This document shows positions 12,175 to 21,324 of a stretch of DNA of 48,852 nt, in pieces. A program made the position numbers and the translations under genes. The DNA is from a virus: the IMG/VR virus record IMGVR_UViG_3300010399_000003, positions 1-48,852 of that record; one strand, given 5' to 3'. The number at the start of each line of letters is the position of its first letter. The stretch's first letter is position 1. Below the pieces are notes generated by a model that was given only the letters and a program-made list of their open reading frames with translations, was not told where the DNA came from and did no database searches.

Positions 12175-12235
12175 GGAACCAGAAACCGTGGTGGAGAACC
12201 ACGGTTGCCCGAATGGACGGGCCTGATGAGGTTCC
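12175..12235 (+). ncRNA. type II hammerhead-like ribozyme motif, copy 1
   Basis: Stem II GGAACC (12175-80) pairs with GGTTCC (12230-35). A, then GAAA (12182-85). Stem III ACCGTGGT/ACCACGGT (12185-92 / 12198-205). H17 = T12206. Stem I GCCCG-AATGGA-CGGGC (12207-22). Core CTGATGA (12223-29). Predicted cleavage at 12206/12207. Confidence 0.75.
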
Positions 12236-12236
12236 A

Positions 12237-12422
12237 ATGCGTAAAGTCACGACGAAGTCCCACCGTAAGTCTGTTTCCCAGAAACAACCGTTCGTCAACA
12301 CCGTAATGTGTCAGTGGTTCGCACTGTGCAACCGCCCCGCGACCGGAACGACGCGTCATCCGGCGCTCGGTAACGTGCCGACCTGCGACCGGTGCCATAA
12401 CTTCGCGACGGAGAAGCGGTAA
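12237..12422 (+). CDS. hypothetical protein
   Basis: ATG 12237 lies 5 nt after the GAGG of the ribozyme core, as in the other copies. It is in frame with track ORF 12213..12422, whose ATG lies in the stem I loop. Confidence 0.5.
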   Translation: MRKVTTKSHRKSVSQKQPFVNTVMCQWFALCNRPATGTTRHPALGNVPTCDRCHNFATEKR

Positions 12423-12604
12423 TGTCAAAAACGAGATTGCTCAAGCTCATCGAACTTTACTTCACAGGCGGTCCGGAAGATTTCAAGAGGGCTGTTGAAA
12501 GCCTCAGTCATCCTGACCAGAACACGGTTGCCATGTGGCTGCACGAGCTCAATAAGTTAGCTGGCGAAGCGGTCGGGGTTCTCGATTGCCGGAGGAAGTC
12601 ATGA
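12422..12604 (+). CDS. hypothetical protein
   Basis: TAATG overlap with the upstream stop. Confidence 0.5.
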   Translation: MSKTRLLKLIELYFTGGPEDFKRAVESLSHPDQNTVAMWLHELNKLAGEAVGVLDCRRKS

Positions 12605-12993
12605 AGAAAAAATCCAGGAAGCAATCAGCTCGTCATCAGGAAGAAGCCGCCGCGCGAAAAGCTGTCAGAGAATACGACGCCCGAATCAAGAGGATTAAGG
12701 CGCTCGTCACGCATTCTATAGACGGAAGTCCGCTGAAAAGATTCCGTCCGACAGGACGATACACGATTGTGACCCCTGATTCGGTTCAAATCGGGTTCTG
12801 GGTTTCTTCGTGGTGCTTGCCGAAAGGAATTCGCGCTGGTCAGGTCTTTCGGGTCATGGCTGTGGAAGGCGCGGTGTCGCTGCAAGAACCTGGGCACCCG
12901 GGATGGATGGAACCTCCTGGGTTCATGCTTCGCCGTCTTCCTCGCAAGAGCTACAAGATTCTCAATCCTTCCGCAACAGCTCGGACACTCTGA
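12601..12993 (+). CDS. hypothetical basic protein
   Basis: ATGA overlap, GGAGG upstream, Lys/Arg-rich N-terminus. Confidence 0.55.
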   Translation: MKKKSRKQSARHQEEAAARKAVREYDARIKRIKALVTHSIDGSPLKRFRPTGRYTIVTPDSVQIGFWVSSWCLPKGIRAGQVFRVMAVEGAVSLQEPGHPGWMEPPGFMLRRLPRKSYKILNPSATARTL

Positions 12994-13001
12994 GGTAATC
13001 C

Positions 13002-13262
13002 ATGGCTGAACAGAACGATTTCGAGAAGTCCTTCGAGGAAGCAACCCGCGGTCTGTCACGCGACGACCGCGAAGTGGTGCGGTGCCTGTTCGTCGGCGCG
13101 ATTGGTCGACCGTCGGTGTTCTACTCATCGAAAATCTTCGCGGCGGCGTCCGCTATCGCGAAGGATATGGGTTGGTGGCGGACGACTCCGGGTGCGGCGT
13201 CGCAGATGAAGCGGCGTAAGGCTGGAAAGCGTGGGTCGGATTGGGGCGGGAGAGGTATCTAA
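13002..13262 (+). CDS. hypothetical protein
   Basis: GAGGT SD at 12992-12996. Confidence 0.55.
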   Translation: MAEQNDFEKSFEEATRGLSRDDREVVRCLFVGAIGRPSVFYSSKIFAAASAIAKDMGWWRTTPGAASQMKRRKAGKRGSDWGGRGI

Positions 13263-13459
13263 TGGGCAACGGGTTCGTCAATCAATACGGGCACCCACTT
13301 GGTGGGTGCCTGTTCGGCACGATGGTCGCCGGTCGGTCGGCTCACAGTATGCGGTGCGCGTGCGCCAATTGTTCAATGTGGCGCAGCCAGAAGGCCGGTC
13401 AGCACCGAGCGGCGCAGAAACGTCGGATGGAGCGTGCAGCCAAGCGGAGGCAGAAATGA
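13262..13459 (+). CDS. hypothetical small basic protein
   Basis: TAATG overlap. Internal Met of track ORF 13241..13459. CACANC motif and a basic tail. Confidence 0.45.
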   Translation: MGNGFVNQYGHPLGGCLFGTMVAGRSAHSMRCACANCSMWRSQKAGQHRAAQKRRMERAAKRRQK

Positions 13460-13656
13460 GAACTCAAGGAGTCATGACTCACGGAACGCGGGTCAGGGTT
13501 CAGAAGTCGAAAGGCAAGCGTGCGTCGTGGCTCGTCATTATGGAAAATGATGAAGAGTCCATCACGCTCGCTGAATTCCCGGTCACCAAAAACGGAACGA
13601 TGGATGCAAAGGAGTGCGCCAACGACTTCCGGTGGATTTGCGGCGCGTGGTCGTAA
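13456..13656 (+). CDS. hypothetical protein
   Basis: ATGA overlap. Internal Met of track ORF 13231..13656. Confidence 0.5.
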   Translation: MRTQGVMTHGTRVRVQKSKGKRASWLVIMENDEESITLAEFPVTKNGTMDAKECANDFRWICGAWS

Positions 13657-13733
13657 GGAGCTAGAAACGGCCGACCTGAGGATTTCCAAACTTAGGTCGG
13701 CGTCGCCTGAATTAACAGGCCTGATGAGGTTCC
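13657..13733 (+). ncRNA. type II hammerhead-like ribozyme motif, copy 2
   Basis: Stem II GGAGCT (13657-62) pairs with GGTTCC (13728-33). A, then GAAA (13664-67). Stem III is 13667-13680 / 13691-13703 (13 bp, G13670 bulged) with loop GATTTCCAAA. H17 = C13704 (GUC). Stem I GCCTG-AATTAA-CAGGC (13705-20). Core CTGATGA (13721-27). Confidence 0.8.
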
Positions 13734-13734
13734 C

Positions 13735-19521: not shown

Positions 19522-19817
19522 TGCCTATCGAACATAACAAGAGCGGAAGCACGACGCTCACCGGCGACTCAATCGATTTCTTCCGGCTGGCTATGCTCAA
19601 GTCGGCGGTCGGCTTGGAGTTGAAAGGGATTCGCGTGACGCGCGGTCCGGTCGTCTGGAAGCGGGTCAAGAACGAATTCAACCTGAAAGCCAAAACCAAA
19701 AAGGAAGTCTATCAGTGGCTCTGCGCCGAGGTCGAACGGTTGAAGGCGTTGCAAGAGCACGTGGTTCACGAAGACGGTCGGGTCAAGCGCGAAGTCGGCG
19801 GGAAGGAGATTCAGTGA
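19521..19817 (+). CDS. hypothetical protein
   Basis: TAATG overlap. Confidence 0.5.
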   Translation: MPIEHNKSGSTTLTGDSIDFFRLAMLKSAVGLELKGIRVTRGPVVWKRVKNEFNLKAKTKKEVYQWLCAEVERLKALQEHVVHEDGRVKREVGGKEIQ

Positions 19818-19876
19818 AATTGAAGAAGCAGTTGGATCGGCTCAGTCGGCCAATCAAGATCTATTGAGCGGTCCGA

Positions 19877-20095
19877 GTGGCCTTCGGTCGGAAGGTCCCA
19901 AACGGATGGCTCCCGGTGTTCAGTGTGGACACGGTGGCTGAGGCGCGTCGGCTGATTACGTTGGCCTGTCCGATGGATGACAGCGGCAACTACTATGCTC
20001 GAGAACTTGCCGAAGAACAGACGCTCGACAACTTGCAGAAGTTCGGCGATAAGTTGGCGCTGGCTTATGCGCATATGAAGAGGATGAATCCATGA
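19877..20095 (+). CDS. hypothetical protein
   Basis: GTG start from the track; weak RBS. Confidence 0.4.
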   Translation: MAFGRKVPNGWLPVFSVDTVAEARRLITLACPMDDSGNYYARELAEEQTLDNLQKFGDKLALAYAHMKRMNP

Positions 20096-20556
20096 ACATC
20101 ACGCACGCCGACCACGGGTTGGCTCCTGAACACCTCGCGTTTATTCAGCAGTGCATTCTCGATCATACGGAGCAACTGGGTTTGACCGGCTTCCTCCTGA
20201 CCACCGTGACAATGCCGGATTGGTTGCCGACGCTCGACTGTGGGTTGCATGGTCCGCGGATGGGTGATCCGGTGGTTCCGGAAAACGACGTCTTCTACCA
20301 TGTCCGTGGTTCCCGAAAGTGGGCGTCTCGGTTGTGCGACCGTCCGGCCCGACCGAGTCATCAGATGACGATCATCGCGGCGCTGGATGTGTCACTGAAA
20401 ACGGTCAACGTCATCACGGCATTCGGCGGTCCGTTGGCGCCGAAAGAACCCGGCGATCCGACGTTGATGACGATGGATGAAATTCTCGAATCGCGGAAGT
20501 TCTGGTCCGAGCACGCGCTCAGTGGTGCTCGCTTTGGAGATGGAGGACGAGCGTAA
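20092..20556 (+). CDS. hypothetical protein
   Basis: ATGA overlap. Confidence 0.55.
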   Translation: MNITHADHGLAPEHLAFIQQCILDHTEQLGLTGFLLTTVTMPDWLPTLDCGLHGPRMGDPVVPENDVFYHVRGSRKWASRLCDRPARPSHQMTIIAALDVSLKTVNVITAFGGPLAPKEPGDPTLMTMDEILESRKFWSEHALSGARFGDGGRA

Positions 20557-20756
20557 TGGAAAACGTGAAGCGACCCACGGTCAAACTTGTCGGTGCCGAC
20601 GGCAACGTGTTCAACATCATCGCGCTGTGTAAGGTCGCGGCGCGCAAATCGGGATGGACGAAAGAGAAAATCGATGCGCTGGTTCAGGATCTGATGCACA
20701 GTCGCGATTACGACGACGTCTTGGGCAAGGTCATGGAACAATTCGACGTGGAGTAG
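20556..20756 (+). CDS. hypothetical protein
   Basis: TAATG overlap. Confidence 0.5.
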   Translation: MENVKRPTVKLVGADGNVFNIIALCKVAARKSGWTKEKIDALVQDLMHSRDYDDVLGKVMEQFDVE

Positions 20757-20759
20757 ACA

Positions 20760-20777
20760 GATTTCCAAACTTAGGTC
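20760..20777 (+). promoter_or_regulatory. GATTTCCAAACTTAGGTC motif copy (function unknown)
   Basis: Exact 18-mer shared with 13681-13698. Lies between the stop at 20756 and ATG 20782. Confidence 0.4.
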
Positions 20778-20781
20778 AATC

Positions 20782-21051
20782 ATGATGAAAAAGATTTTCT
20801 TCCTCGCGGCTGGCGCCGGATTCATGGCGCTGGCCATCGCGACCTGTGTGCAGGGAACACAGCAAGCATCACAATTACAGGCGGAGAAGCCGACGGTCGT
20901 GGTGCCGGATTGGCGACTGGTCGGCACTTTGGAAAACAGCGCAGGGCAACCAGCTGTCGCGCTGTGGTTCAATCGCCTCACGCGCACATGCTTGGCTGTC
21001 GGTGTTGATGGGACGGTGACGAAATTGTGGGATAGTGATTGTGAGGAGTAA
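20782..21051 (+). CDS. secreted or lipoprotein-like small protein
   Basis: N-terminal signal-like MMKKIFFLAAGAGFMALAIATC with Cys after the hydrophobic core. The lipobox is imperfect. Confidence 0.5.
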   Translation: MMKKIFFLAAGAGFMALAIATCVQGTQQASQLQAEKPTVVVPDWRLVGTLENSAGQPAVALWFNRLTRTCLAVGVDGTVTKLWDSDCEE

Positions 21052-21264
21052 ATGCTGAATCTGACTATCGGTGCCACTTACATCGTCCGACCAGGTGATC
21101 ACTTCGAGTTAGTGCTGCCGGATGGCACGACGCTGAGTGTCGAGCAAACGCAAGATGACTTTTCCATCATTCATACGAATGACGAAGTCGCGTATCGCAC
21201 GCCGACGAGTCAATTCGCGAAAGAGAACGAAGCAGATCAACCGCGTGTGACGGGTCGGAAGTAG
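21052..21264 (+). CDS. hypothetical protein
   Basis: ATG immediately after the upstream TAA. Confidence 0.5.
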   Translation: MLNLTIGATYIVRPGDHFELVLPDGTTLSVEQTQDDFSIIHTNDEVAYRTPTSQFAKENEADQPRVTGRK

Positions 21265-21324
21265 GAGCTAGAAAGGTGGTCATCGTGACCACCTCGCCCG
21301 AATCAACGGGCCTGAGGAGGTTCC
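21264..21324 (+). ncRNA. type II hammerhead-like ribozyme motif, copy 5
   Basis: Stem II GGAGCT (21264-69, overlapping the TAG) pairs with GGTTCC (21319-24). A, then GAAA (21271-74). Stem III AGGTGGTCA-TCG-TGACCACCT (21274-94). H17 = C21295 (CUC). Stem I GCCCG-AATCAA-CGGGC (21296-311). Core CTGAGGA (21312-18). Confidence 0.8.

What the first reader, a model, noticed from the sequence alone, without database searches (positions are those of the whole stretch)
12175..21324. Five paralogous type II hammerhead-like ribozyme motifs occupy gene junctions
Five + strand intergenic elements (12175-12235, 13657-13733, 17342-17416, 18236-18317, 21264-21324) share one layout. It runs GGAKCU (or GGAACC), A, GAAA, a variable hairpin, U, H, the hairpin GCCNG-AAUNRA-CNGGC, CUGANGA, then GGNUCC. 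This is the hammerhead three-way junction in the permutation open at stem II.

In hammerhead numbering the order is: stem II 5' strand, G12-A13-A14, stem III closed by A15.1-U16.1, H17, stem I hairpin, C3-U4-G5-A6-N7-G8-A9, stem II 3' strand.

- **Core.** Every invariant core nucleotide is present in all five copies. The only core position that differs between copies is N7 (U,U,G,A,G), which is the one free position in hammerheads.
- **Cleavage site.** H17 is U,C,C,C,C and never G. The triplets are GUU, GUC, GUC, GUC, CUC.
- **Stem I covariation.** The fourth pair is C-G, U-A, G-C, G-C, C-G.
- **Stem II covariation.** The fourth pair is A-U, G.U, U.G, U-A, G.U.
- **Stem III covariation.** The sequences are unrelated and run from 8 bp to 3+11 bp, yet always close with A-U.

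Hammerheads are known from bacterial and phage-like contexts. A five-copy array inside one phage gene block is still a striking, testable RNA-processing system.

Caveats: the folds are by hand, and there is one invariant extra A (see the separate finding).
Basis: partly seen in the sequence, partly recalled or inferred. Interest (0 to 1): 0.92.

Follow-up and report, generated by a model that had tools for sequence, protein, structure and literature searches.

The report
Hammerhead ribozyme array between phage genes
Five copies of a self-cutting RNA motif (a hammerhead ribozyme open at stem II) sit in front of genes in an uncultivated phage; such arrays have been known in phages since 2011, but this lineage has an unusual extra adenosine and its catalytic core doubles as the ribosome-binding site of the next gene.

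Summary
Five + strand elements (12175-12235, 13657-13733, 17342-17416, 18236-18317, 21264-21324) have the full hammerhead core in type II order and fold as three-way junctions.

A covariance model built only from 31 similar elements in other phage contigs finds exactly these five in the window (53-66 bits; next best 10). Across 62 distinct copies from relatives of this phage:
- all three stems covary (95.5% paired, 243 compensatory cells);
- the unpaired core is invariant apart from one A13 change; N7 is free;
- H17 is never G.

Rfam misses them. RF02276 gives 23.9 bits for copy 1 against a gathering score of 37, and nothing for the others. The lineage differs from the type II consensus in three ways:
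- stem II has 6-7 bp and always carries one bulged A on its 5' strand;
- there is no pseudoknot between loop I and the 3' tail;
- loop I is AAUNRA.

G8-A9-G10.1-G10.2 reads GAGG, 5-7 nt before the start codon, so the core is also the Shine-Dalgarno sequence. In four of the five copies the upstream stop codon abuts or overlaps stem II.

The most likely role is self-cleavage of polycistronic early RNA into separate units. Hammerhead arrays flanking phage genes were published in 2011, so this is a new variant of a known kind. Catalysis is untested.

The parts
12175..12235 (+). Hammerhead copy 1. Stem II is GGAACC/GGUUCC, with an extra A at 12181. G12-A14 is 12182-12184. Stem III is 12185-12205 and H17 is U12206. 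Predicted cleavage is at 12206/12207. The stem I hairpin is 12207-12222 and the core CUGAUGA is 12223-12229.
   Evidence: Sequence. Custom covariance model 65.7 bits, E 7e-19. Rfam RF02276 23.9 bits, below the cut-off of 37. The MFE fold is a three-way junction, z -4.7.
13657..13733 (+). Hammerhead copy 2. Stem II is GGAGCU/GGUUCC, with an extra A at 13663. Predicted cleavage is at 13704/13705. The core is 13721-13727. Stem III is long, with the repeat motif at its apex.
   Evidence: Sequence. Custom model 53.5 bits. Fold z -4.35. The stop codon TAA at 13654-13656 abuts the element.
17342..17416 (+). Hammerhead copy 3. Stem II is GGAUCU/GGGUCC, with an extra A at 17348. Predicted cleavage is at 17387/17388. 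The core is 17404-17410.
   Evidence: Sequence. Custom model 57.7 bits. The ligase stop codon TAG at 17340-17342 overlaps the first G. Homologues of the downstream gene are also preceded by a hammerhead in L012 and L004.
18236..18317 (+). Hammerhead copy 4. Stem II is GGAUCU/GGAUCC, with an extra A at 18242. Predicted cleavage is at 18288/18289. The core is 18305-18311.
   Evidence: Sequence. Custom model 53.2 bits. Fold z -4.2.
21264..21324 (+). Hammerhead copy 5. Stem II is GGAGCU/GGUUCC, with an extra A at 21270. Predicted cleavage is at 21295/21296. The core is 21312-21318.
   Evidence: Sequence. Custom model 65.0 bits. On the minus strand stem II does not form, because its G.U pairs become C.A.
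12228..12239 (+). GAGG (G8-A9-G10.1-G10.2) acting as the Shine-Dalgarno sequence, the spacer, and the ATG at 12237. The same arrangement occurs at 13726-13737, 17409-17420 (TTG start), 18310-18322 and 21317-21330.
   Evidence: Direct reading. In 55 of 62 distinct copies a start codon that opens an ORF of at least 35 codons lies 4-12 nt after G10.2 (one further outlier at 0), most often 5-6 nt. Other genes of the window use GGAG/GAGG-type sites at the same distance.
13679..13696 (+). The repeat AGGATTTCCAAACTTAGG nested in the apex of stem III of copy 2. Its counterpart in copy 3 is at 17362-17379. Free-standing copies are at 14681-14698 and 20758-20775.
   Evidence: The related contig L004 shows the same thing with its own motif, ATCTGGCACCA. 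Its function is unknown.

Best explanation
The five elements are self-cleaving hammerhead ribozymes of type II topology. They belong to a lineage-specific variant carried by an uncultivated group of phages.

**Proposed mechanism (steps 1-5 inferred; only the fold in step 2 is supported here)**
1. The rightward block of small early and replication genes (about 12.2-22 kb) is transcribed as long polycistronic RNA.
2. As each element emerges, the stem III and stem I hairpins fold. When the 3' strand of stem II appears, the three-way junction closes. The fold is supported by covariation.
3. The RNA cuts itself after H17. This follows from established hammerhead chemistry: G12 acts as the general base and the 2'-OH of G8 as the acid.
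4. The upstream RNA then ends in the stable stem III hairpin with a 2',3'-cyclic phosphate. The downstream RNA begins with a 5'-OH on the GC-rich stem I hairpin.
5. The two products are held together only by the 6-bp, G.U-containing stem II, so they can separate.

**Link to translation**
- G8-A9-G10.1-G10.2 spells GAGG, 5-7 nt before the start codon, so the catalytic core is also the ribosome-binding site of the next gene.
- In copies 2-5 the stop codon of the previous gene abuts or overlaps the 5' strand of stem II. Copy 1 instead follows about 870 nt without a convincing ORF.

**Net effect (inferred)**
The transcript is cut into units of one or a few genes. Each unit has the same hairpin-capped leader and its own stability and translation.

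The bulged A in stem II and the AAUNRA loop of stem I probably take the place of the loop-tail pseudoknot of ordinary type II hammerheads as the tertiary brace. This last point is speculative.
For: **Structure**
- 95.5% of cells are paired against 69.5% in shuffles. There are 243 compensatory cells against 75. Sliding the partner columns gives only 27-45% paired.
- A15.1-U16.1 is present in 60 of 61 copies.

**Core in 62 distinct copies**
- G12 60/60, A13 59/60, A14 60/60.
- C3-U4-G5-A6 and G8-A9 62/62.
- N7 is free (U30, C17, G8, A7).
- H17 is C in 61 and U in 1, never G.
- GAAA, U16.1 and H17 were not part of the retrieval pattern.
- A pattern made of the stem I hairpin alone recovers about 23 true elements. 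All are followed by CUGANGA except L033, a type III copy with U4 to C. About 14 further hits lie in unrelated sequence and lack everything else.

**RNA on this strand**
- There are 22 U.G pairs at one stem II position.
- Stem II is lost on the minus strand.
- All copies are co-oriented with the genes.

**Same module in another permutation**
- Type III versions (L001, L005, L013, L033) keep the stem I hairpin. L001, L005 and L033 also keep the A bulge; L013 has a canonical junction.

**Rfam**
- RF02276 is the top family for copy 1 (23.9 bits) and for relatives (23-33 bits).

**Translation link**
- Start codon spacing, stop codon overlap and the SD usage of other genes.

**Products can separate**
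- The stem II duplex is -6.8 to -9.7 kcal/mol.

**Precedent**
- Clustered hammerheads in prophages cleave in vitro (PMC3088659).
- Type II hammerheads near phage genes cleave in vivo in Desulfovibrio vulgaris (PMC8782182).
Against: - No cleavage data exist for any member of this lineage.
- No copy reaches the Rfam gathering score. No hammerhead family reaches E<=10 over 11500-22000 or for copy 5 searched alone; copies 2-4 were not searched individually.
- The extra A lies directly between stem II and G12, the catalytic base. In copies 2-5 the pair next to the core is G10.1.U11.1 rather than the usual G-C. Perreault et al. rejected candidates with mispairs next to the core.
- The usual type II pseudoknot is absent, and no tertiary contact has been shown.
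- The idea that cleavage unmasks the ribosome-binding site is not supported by thermodynamic prediction, which gave mixed results.
- Part of the core invariance (CUGANGAGG and the stem I sequence) was imposed by the search pattern.
Confidence: 0.8

Rival explanations
1. The elements are non-catalytic intercistronic cassettes. Two protective or regulatory hairpins plus a Shine-Dalgarno sequence set translation and mRNA stability. The hammerhead likeness is vestigial, for example dead ribozymes kept for their hairpins and their ribosome-binding site.
For: - GAGG in the core lies at the right distance from the start codon in 55 of 62 copies.
- Scores are below the Rfam threshold or absent.
- There is an extra A next to G12, and a G.U pair at 10.1-11.1.
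- There is no pseudoknot.
Against: - A hairpin-plus-SD role does not explain near-invariant G12-A13-A14 (one A13 change in 60), invariant C3-U4-G5-A6, a fixed A15.1-U16.1 pair, or the absence of G at H17 in 62 copies, while N7 and all stem sequences drift freely.
- The same core is kept when the topology is permuted to type III.
Confidence: 0.1
2. The elements are recognition sites for a protein. Candidates are a phage or host endoribonuclease (RNase III-like or Cas6-like) or a translational repressor, which would bind the conserved stem I hairpin GCCNG-AAUNRA-CNGGC. Processing would be done by the protein, not by the RNA.
For: - The stem I hairpin and its loop are unusually conserved in sequence.
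- A second short motif sits in the stem III loops and elsewhere, which would suit a binding protein.
Against: - The conservation of stem I is partly an artefact of the search pattern. Copies found only by the model do covary there, for example CGGGG/CCCCG and GCGGG/CCCGC.
- A protein site does not predict the complete hammerhead core in the right order in two permutations.
- No RNase-like gene was identified next to the array. Only an HNH protein and a DNA ligase were found.
Confidence: 0.05
3. The elements act at the DNA level, as repeated intergenic DNA such as recombination or packaging sites, miniature mobile elements, or promoter or terminator modules.
For: - Their positions between orthologous genes change among related phages, as mobile or recombining cassettes would.
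- Copies 2 and 3 are close paralogues.
Against: - Pairing depends on G.U pairs that exist only in RNA of the + strand.
- All copies are on the coding strand.
- Promoter-like and terminator-like sites in the region are no more frequent than in shuffles.
Confidence: 0.03

Closest known systems
Type II hammerhead ribozyme (Rfam RF02276; Perreault et al. 2011, PMC3088659)
   Same: - The order of parts is the same: stem II 5' strand, GAA, capped stem III closed by A-U, H17, capped stem I, CUGANGA, stem II 3' strand.
- The core nucleotides are the same.
- RF02276 is the best Rfam family for copy 1 and for relatives.
   Different: - The consensus has a 2-bp stem II (GC/GC) and a pseudoknot of four or more pairs between loop I and the 3' tail (model consensus).
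- Here stem II has 6-7 bp and always carries one bulged A on the 11.x strand. Positions 10.1-10.2 are GG. Loop I is AAUNRA, and complementarity between loop and tail is at chance level.
- Scores are below the gathering cut-off or absent.
Clustered hammerheads flanking genes in prophages (Clostridium scindens, Azorhizobium caulinodans, Agrobacterium tumefaciens; PMC3088659, its Figure 3)
   Same: - Several hammerheads flank single genes or short gene blocks in phage DNA.
- The genes are small, non-conserved ORFs.
- The proposed role is processing of polycistronic phage RNA.
   Different: - Those were tested and do cleave; these are untested.
- Here the copies are paralogues of one variant. There are up to 13 in one contig (L012 plus L014). 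In L003, six of eight intervals between ribozymes hold a single gene.
- An overlap with the stop codon and the Shine-Dalgarno sequence is not mentioned in the papers I could search.
HHphage of haloviruses HF1 and HF2 (PMC3088659)
   Same: A hammerhead lies 13 nt upstream of the start codon of an early gene, and a mapped 5' end lies within 3 nt of the cleavage site. It is a phage hammerhead that defines the 5' end of an early mRNA.
   Different: It is an archaeal virus with a single copy and a different structural variant that depends on high Mg2+. No overlap of the core with a ribosome-binding site is described.
CChMVd (+) hammerhead with an extra A between A9 and G10.1 (De la Pena and Flores 2001; recalled from memory, not checked here)
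   Same: A natural, active hammerhead tolerates one extra adenosine at the junction of the core and stem II.
   Different: That insertion is on the other strand (between A9 and G10.1), in a type III viroid ribozyme. Here the extra A is on the 11.x strand: next to G12 in the window, or one or two pairs further out in relatives.
Synthetic ribozyme insulators such as RiboJ (Lou et al. 2012; recalled from memory, not checked here)
   Same: A hammerhead placed before a ribosome-binding site cuts off the upstream RNA. The gene then has a constant hairpin-capped leader whatever lies upstream.
   Different: That is an engineered type III sTRSV ribozyme with a separate ribosome-binding site after it. 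Here the ribosome-binding site lies inside the core and stem II.

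Membership tests
Hammerhead ribozyme (class) | Three helices that meet at one junction, supported by covariation | tested here: met
   18 pairs in 3 helices. 95.5% of cells are paired, 15 pairs change on both sides, and 0 of 500 shuffles reach the observed values. Slide controls give 27-45% paired. The MFE folds of all five copies show the junction.
Hammerhead ribozyme (class) | Conserved core C3-U4-G5-A6-N7-G8-A9 and G12-A13-A14 | tested here: met
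   All are present in the five copies. They are invariant in 62 distinct relatives except for one A13 change, and N7 is free. The CUGANGA part is partly fixed by the way the copies were retrieved. The GAA part is not.
Hammerhead ribozyme (class) | An A15.1-U16.1 pair closing stem III, and H17 not G | tested here: met
   A-U in 60 of 61 copies. H17 is C in 61 and U in 1, never G. Neither position was in the retrieval pattern.
Hammerhead ribozyme (class) | A G10.1-C11.1 pair directly next to A9 and G12, with no inserted nucleotide | tested here: not met
   Copy 1 has G10.1-C11.1 followed by an extra A before G12. Copies 2-5 have G10.1.U11.1 plus the extra A. In relatives the pair is canonical, but an A bulges one or two positions further out. 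All 60 type II copies have at least one extra nucleotide on this strand.
Hammerhead ribozyme (class) | A tertiary contact between stems I and II (loop-loop, loop-bulge or pseudoknot) | tested here: inconclusive
   There is no pseudoknot signal. The conserved AAUNRA hexaloop and the universal bulged A are candidates, but nothing links them.
Hammerhead ribozyme (class) | Site-specific self-cleavage that gives 2',3'-cyclic phosphate and 5'-OH ends | not testable with these tools
   This needs in vitro transcription and cleavage assays, or end-specific RNA-seq.
Rfam RF02276 Hammerhead_II | A covariance-model score at or above the gathering cut-off of 37 bits | tested here: not met
   No hit over the window at gathering score. 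No hammerhead hit at E<=10 over 11500-22000 or for copy 5 alone. Copy 1 alone scores 23.9 bits. Relatives in L012 score 23-33 bits, and none of 12 related loci reaches gathering score.
Rfam RF02276 Hammerhead_II | Topology: stems I and III capped, stem II open | tested here: met
Rfam RF02276 Hammerhead_II | A pseudoknot between loop I and the nucleotides just 3' of stem II (in the majority of members, per PMC3088659) | tested here: not met
   The mean longest Watson-Crick helix is 2.68 bp (3' strand of stem II included) or 2.58 bp (strictly after it), against 2.60 and 2.50 with shuffled loops. It reaches 4 bp in only 7 of 59 copies. The 3' tail pairs instead with a 5' extension, with covariation between GGCA/UGCC, GGAA/UUCC, GGUU/AACC, CCUU/AAGG and GCUA/UAGC.

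The most novel reading that the evidence does not exclude
In this phage lineage the hammerhead core is itself the ribosome-binding site: G8-A9-G10.1-G10.2 is GAGG. The upstream stop codon lies in or against stem II. Folding and cleavage of the ribozyme, termination of the upstream ribosome, and initiation on the next gene would therefore be physically coupled.

The arrays would be natural insulators. They would turn one early transcript into mono- or oligocistronic mRNAs with a standard leader: a 5'-OH, a hairpin cap and the ribosome-binding site. A phage-specific motif (a promoter or an operator) nested in some stem III loops would give a second route to the same leader.

The universal bulged A together with the AAUNRA loop would be a new tertiary brace for hammerheads.
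Probability: 0.3. Interest if true: 0.7.

Novelty: new variant of a known kind. Interest (0 to 1): 0.45.

Why it matters
What bacterial and phage hammerheads do is still described as an open question in reviews (PMC6765202, PMC6155905).

This lineage gives an unusually explicit layout:
- the stop codon sits in or against stem II;
- the ribosome-binding site sits in the catalytic core;
- in some relatives there is one ribozyme per gene.

That turns "mRNA processing" into a concrete hypothesis that a reporter assay can test. It also gives a natural counterpart to synthetic ribozyme insulators.

The work also shows that a sizeable clade is invisible to the current Rfam models. It has more than 60 copies in about 15 viral contigs. 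It carries an inserted A next to the catalytic G12 in half of its members. That A is a useful natural experiment on how much the hammerhead core tolerates.

Tried and rejected
- **Rfam at gathering score** on the window and on 12 related loci gave no ribozyme. Rfam at E<=10 over 10.5 kb and over 81 nt around copy 5 gave no hammerhead.
- **Known phages.** Megablast of 11500-22000 against 50,697 GenBank phage records gave no match. tblastn with the helicase gave nothing above 30% identity. blastn of a 32-nt consensus of the stem I hairpin and core, built from the copies, gave only chance hits inside coding genes. No cultured relative is available.
- **Bacterial and archaeal genomes.** The genome-contig scan gave 8 hits. 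Seven are chance matches whose N positions do not pair and which lack the rest of the motif. Only L026 is real. The lineage is therefore not a common prophage feature.
- **Pseudoknot.** The search between loop I and either flank was at chance level.
- **Unmasking of the ribosome-binding site.** ViennaRNA pairing probabilities before and after cleavage were inconsistent among the five copies, so I do not use them as support.
- **Promoters and terminators.** The scan of 10500-23000 found counts no higher than in shuffles.
- **Other searches.** There are no tRNAs. No RNA polymerase or RNase gene was found among the large ORFs scanned against Pfam and PHROGs; the 1127-aa ORF was scanned against Pfam only.
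- **Literature.** Searches for natural hammerheads that overlap a Shine-Dalgarno sequence found nothing in the held library. The stem I and core sequences are absent from the supplements of Perreault et al. that are held; their alignment file is not held.
- **Junction UAG as a stop codon.** I considered that the UAG in CUAGAAA exists to stop the upstream gene. That is true in about 9 relatives but in none of the window copies, so it cannot be the general reason for the extra A.
- **Possible decayed sixth copy.** GACGATGAGGTTCACCC before the ATG at 21611 has no hairpins upstream, so I rejected it.

Full report
**1. The observation**

The layout is:
- GGAKCU (GGAACC in copy 1), then A, then GAA;
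- a hairpin of 21-42 nt closed by A...U;
- H (U in copy 1, C in the others);
- the hairpin GCCNG-AAUNRA-CNGGC;
- CUGANGA, then GGNUCC.

The arrangement is far from chance:
- A composite pattern has 0.00 expected matches.
- A relaxed descriptor requires only CUGANGA, any stem I hairpin, U-H, and GAAA with at least 3 bp of stem III. It finds exactly five hits in the window, all on the + strand. Over the window plus the 28 loci held at that point it finds 56, against 0.8 per shuffle of the same sequences.
- Each copy folds into the three-way junction as its minimum-free-energy structure, with z from -2.2 to -4.7. On the minus strand of copy 5, stem II is lost because its G.U pairs become C.A.

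There are three corrections:
- Copies 2 and 3 are close paralogues. They share an 18-nt motif at the apex of stem III.
- Copy 1 does not lie between two genes. It lies at the head of the block, after about 870 nt without a convincing ORF and a GC-rich hairpin at about 12139-12162.
- The extra A is a lineage-wide feature (section 4).

**2. Surroundings**

The window is phage DNA. It encodes thymidylate synthase, a DNA polymerase exonuclease subunit, two helicases, an ATP-dependent DNA ligase (16398-17342) and an HNH protein. The elements lie in a rightward block of small, mostly overlapping ORFs.

| Copy | Upstream | Downstream start |
|---|---|---|
| 1 | noncoding stretch | ATG 12237 |
| 2 | TAA 13654-13656 abuts the element | ATG 13735 |
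| 3 | ligase TAG 17340-17342 overlaps the first G | TTG 17418 |
| 4 | TAG 18234-18236 overlaps the first G | ATG 18320 |
| 5 | TAG 21262-21264 overlaps the first G | ATG 21328 |

There is no close cultured relative. Megablast against GenBank phages gives nothing, and helicase identity is below 30%.

**3. Relatives and the comparative test**

A 25-nt pattern covering only the stem I hairpin and CUGANGAGG hits 20 IMG/VR loci, several with 5-9 matches each. Nearly every hit has, upstream, the parts that were not searched for:
- a strand complementary to the bases that follow the core;
- GAAA;
- a variable hairpin closed by A...U;
- a C at H17.

Several of these contigs are relatives of the window phage. 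Helicases, ligase and the polymerase exonuclease subunit share 32-57% amino-acid identity.

Some ribozyme positions are conserved. Homologues of the gene after copy 3 are also preceded by a ribozyme in L012 and L004. Other positions are not: the helicase has one in L004 and L008 but not in the window.

I built a covariance model from 31 elements, none from the window.
- With filters off it finds exactly the five window copies at 53-66 bits, E 1e-15 to 1e-19. The next best hit scores 10 bits.
- Over all loci it finds 68 matches, 62 of them distinct.

On that alignment:
- 95.5% of cells are paired, against 69.5% after shuffling.
- There are 243 compensatory cells, against 75.
- 15 of 18 pairs change on both sides.
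- Sliding the partners by 1-3 columns drops pairing to 27-45%.
- One stem II position is C-G in 32 copies and U.G in 22, which only makes sense as RNA of this strand.

The unpaired core is conserved:
- G12 60/60, A13 59/60, A14 60/60.
- A15.1-U16.1 60/61.
- H17 is C in 61 and U in 1.
- C3-U4-G5-A6 and G8-A9 62/62.
- N7 is U30, C17, G8, A7.

The CUGANGAGG stretch and four stem I pairs were fixed by the retrieval pattern, so their invariance is partly circular. Two controls address this:
- A pattern made of the stem I hairpin alone returns about 23 true elements. All are followed by CUGANGA except L033, a type III copy with U4 to C. It also returns about 14 hits in unrelated sequence that lack everything else.
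- Copies found only by the model show stem I covariation, for example CGGGG/CCCCG, GCGGG/CCCGC and GCUGG/CCAGC.

The same stem I hairpin and core also occur in type III topology in L001, L005, L013 and L033. There stem II is closed and stem III is open. Circular permutation around one core is a hallmark of hammerheads.

**4. How the lineage differs from known type II hammerheads**

Rfam does not recognise these elements at its thresholds. With permissive settings:
- RF02276 scores 23-33 bits on five L012 copies.
- It scores 23.9 bits on window copy 1, where it is the best of all 4227 families.
- There is no hammerhead hit for copy 5 or for the whole region.

The model consensus shows why. Ordinary type II hammerheads have a 2-bp stem II (GC/GC) followed by a 3' tail that pairs with loop I. 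Perreault et al. describe that pseudoknot for the majority of type II members.

In this lineage:
- The tail pairs instead with a 5' extension, giving a covarying stem II of 6-7 bp.
- Complementarity between loop I and the tail is at chance: 2.68 against 2.60 bp, and at least 4 bp in only 7 of 59 copies.
- Loop I is AAUNRA.
- All 60 type II copies have at least one extra nucleotide on the 5' (11.x) strand: one A, or AA or GA in a few.

The position of that A varies:
- directly before G12 in "CUA/CCA/UCA-GAA" (the window, L003, L004);
- between the first and second pair in "UAC/CAC-GAA", or two nucleotides in "UAAC" (L012, L008, L018);
- after the second pair in "AUC-GAA".

Three of the four type III relatives (L001, L005, L033) keep the bulge; L013 has a canonical junction. 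In copies 2-5 the pair next to the core is G10.1.U11.1 rather than G-C.

I found no description of an insertion on this side of the core. Perreault et al. list A6a, U13a, U15.1-A16.1, U10.1-U11.1 and C3/G8 covariation. A viroid hammerhead with an extra A on the other strand is known to me from memory only.

**5. Link to translation**

G8-A9-G10.1-G10.2 reads GAGG, and GGAGG when N7 is G.
- In the window the start codon follows 5-7 nt later.
- In 55 of 62 distinct copies a start codon that opens an ORF of at least 35 codons lies 4-12 nt after G10.2 (one further outlier at 0), most often 5-6 nt.
- Position 10.2 is G in 58 of 61 copies. The Rfam consensus has C there.
- Other genes of the window use GGAG/GAGG-type sites at the same spacing, 33 of 52 by a simple test.

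On the other side, the stop codon of the upstream gene usually overlaps the 5' strand of stem II:
- UAG-G... in 14 copies, including window copies 3-5.
- UGA as the first stem II bases in L003.
- In about 9 relatives the stop codon is the junction UAG itself, formed by U11.1, the extra A and G12.

In copies 2-5 the ribozyme therefore fills the intercistronic space exactly.

**6. Mechanism**

What is shown: the fold, the conserved core, the strand, the co-orientation with genes, and the fixed geometry relative to stop and start codons.

What is inferred from established hammerhead chemistry and precedent:
- Self-cleavage occurs after H17 as the RNA is made.
- The upstream RNA ends in the stable stem III hairpin with a cyclic phosphate.
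- The downstream RNA begins with a 5'-OH on a GC hairpin, 7 nt before the ribosome-binding site.
- The products are held together only by stem II, at -6.8 to -9.7 kcal/mol.

The precedent is in vitro cleavage of three prophage arrays (PMC3088659) and in vivo cleavage of type II copies in D. vulgaris (PMC8782182).

The likely result is that one early transcript is cut into units with independent stability and a uniform leader. In L003, six of eight intervals between ribozymes hold one gene. In the window the five copies delimit blocks of 2 to about 10 genes.

I could not support the idea that cleavage frees the ribosome-binding site. Predicted accessibility before and after cleavage is inconsistent among the copies. 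A tertiary role for the bulged A and the AAUNRA loop is conjecture.

**7. Rivals**

- A non-catalytic hairpin-plus-SD cassette, a protein recognition site and a DNA-level repeat each explain some features.
- None explains an invariant hammerhead core in the right order in two permutations while N7 and all helices drift.
- I give them about 0.10, 0.05 and 0.03.

**8. Novelty and verdict**

The kind is known. Type II hammerheads, their link with phage genes, and arrays flanking single genes were published in 2011 and reviewed since.

What appears new:
- the lineage itself, which Rfam does not see and which is absent from 50,697 GenBank phage records and from all but one contig among the representative genomes of 185,579 bacterial and archaeal species;
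- its long, A-bulged stem II in place of the pseudoknot;
- the overlap of the core with the Shine-Dalgarno sequence and of stem II with the stop codon;
- the density of copies, up to 13 in one 64.7-kb contig (L012 plus L014).

I rate it a new variant of a known kind, with interest 0.45. My confidence that these are functional self-cleaving hammerheads is 0.8. My confidence in the specific insulator role is about 0.5-0.6.

Noticed in passing
window 13679-13696, 14681-14698, 17362-17379, 20758-20775; variants near 11597-11612, 16165-16175, 22275-22285, 3640-3651: A second + strand repeat, AGGATTTCCAAACTTAGG, has 4 near-exact copies (6 matches at up to 2 mismatches, against 0.38 expected). Two copies sit at the apex of stem III of hammerheads 2 and 3. 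One fills the gap between the stop at 20756 and the ATG at 20782. A short form, GATTTCCA, directly precedes three start codons. It could be a phage-specific promoter or a protein or translation operator.
   Followed up: partly
L004 (IMGVR_UViG_3300037070_008166), minus strand: 373, 2901, 4423, 6426, 9684, 10207, 11519, 11991, 13108, 13964, 14201: A related phage has its own short motif, ATCTGGCACCA, 11 times on the gene strand against 0.23 expected. At least three copies lie inside hammerhead stem III loops (4423, 6426, 9684). Nesting of a phage-specific motif in stem III therefore recurs.
   Followed up: partly
window 11310-12174: About 870 nt upstream of hammerhead 1 have no convincing ORF. 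The first part is AT-rich and holds a 27-nt direct repeat (11295-11321 and 11385-11411) and several TTGACG boxes. A GC-rich stretch follows (11600-12174; fold z -2.4) and ends in a strong hairpin, GGGGCCGG-UAUCAU-CCGGCCCC, at about 12139-12160. Hammerhead 1 would cut this leader, or noncoding RNA, off the first gene. It has no Rfam match and is not conserved in the related loci.
   Followed up: partly
L001 4533-4620 (+), L005 10157-10260 (+), L013 about 60-163 (-), L033 3225-3330 (+): These are type III permutations of the same ribozyme clade. They have the same stem I hairpin, a closed stem II and an open stem III, and an AGGAG-type site and a start codon follow. L001, L005 and L033 keep the A bulge (GCAGCU-A-GAA, GGCGU-A-C-GAA, GGCAUCU-A-GAA). 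L033 has CCGACGA, that is U4 to C. L001, L005 and L013 did not reach the Rfam gathering score; L033 was not scanned with Rfam.
   Followed up: partly
L010 2789-2852 (-), L010 1463-1524 (-), L004 9637-9706 (-): Some relatives carry core insertions: GAUAA (a U inside GAAA), CUGAACGA (an extra A after A6) and CUGAAGGA. The first two resemble the U13a and A6a variants that Perreault et al. tested. These copies are possibly weakened or decaying.
   Followed up: no
window 21590-21613: GACGATGAGGTTCACCC-ATG before the gene at 21611 resembles the 3' end of the hammerhead (CUGAUGAGGUUCC plus the start codon), but no hairpins lie upstream. It is either chance or the remnant of a lost copy.
   Followed up: partly
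window 35800-48852, minus strand: The strand switches at about 36 kb, where the GC skew turns. Large leftward ORFs of 1127, 734, 554 and 436 aa have no family match in the libraries tried (the 1127- and 436-aa ORFs against Pfam only). A radical SAM protein is encoded at 41910-43214. No hammerheads occur in this part.
   Followed up: no
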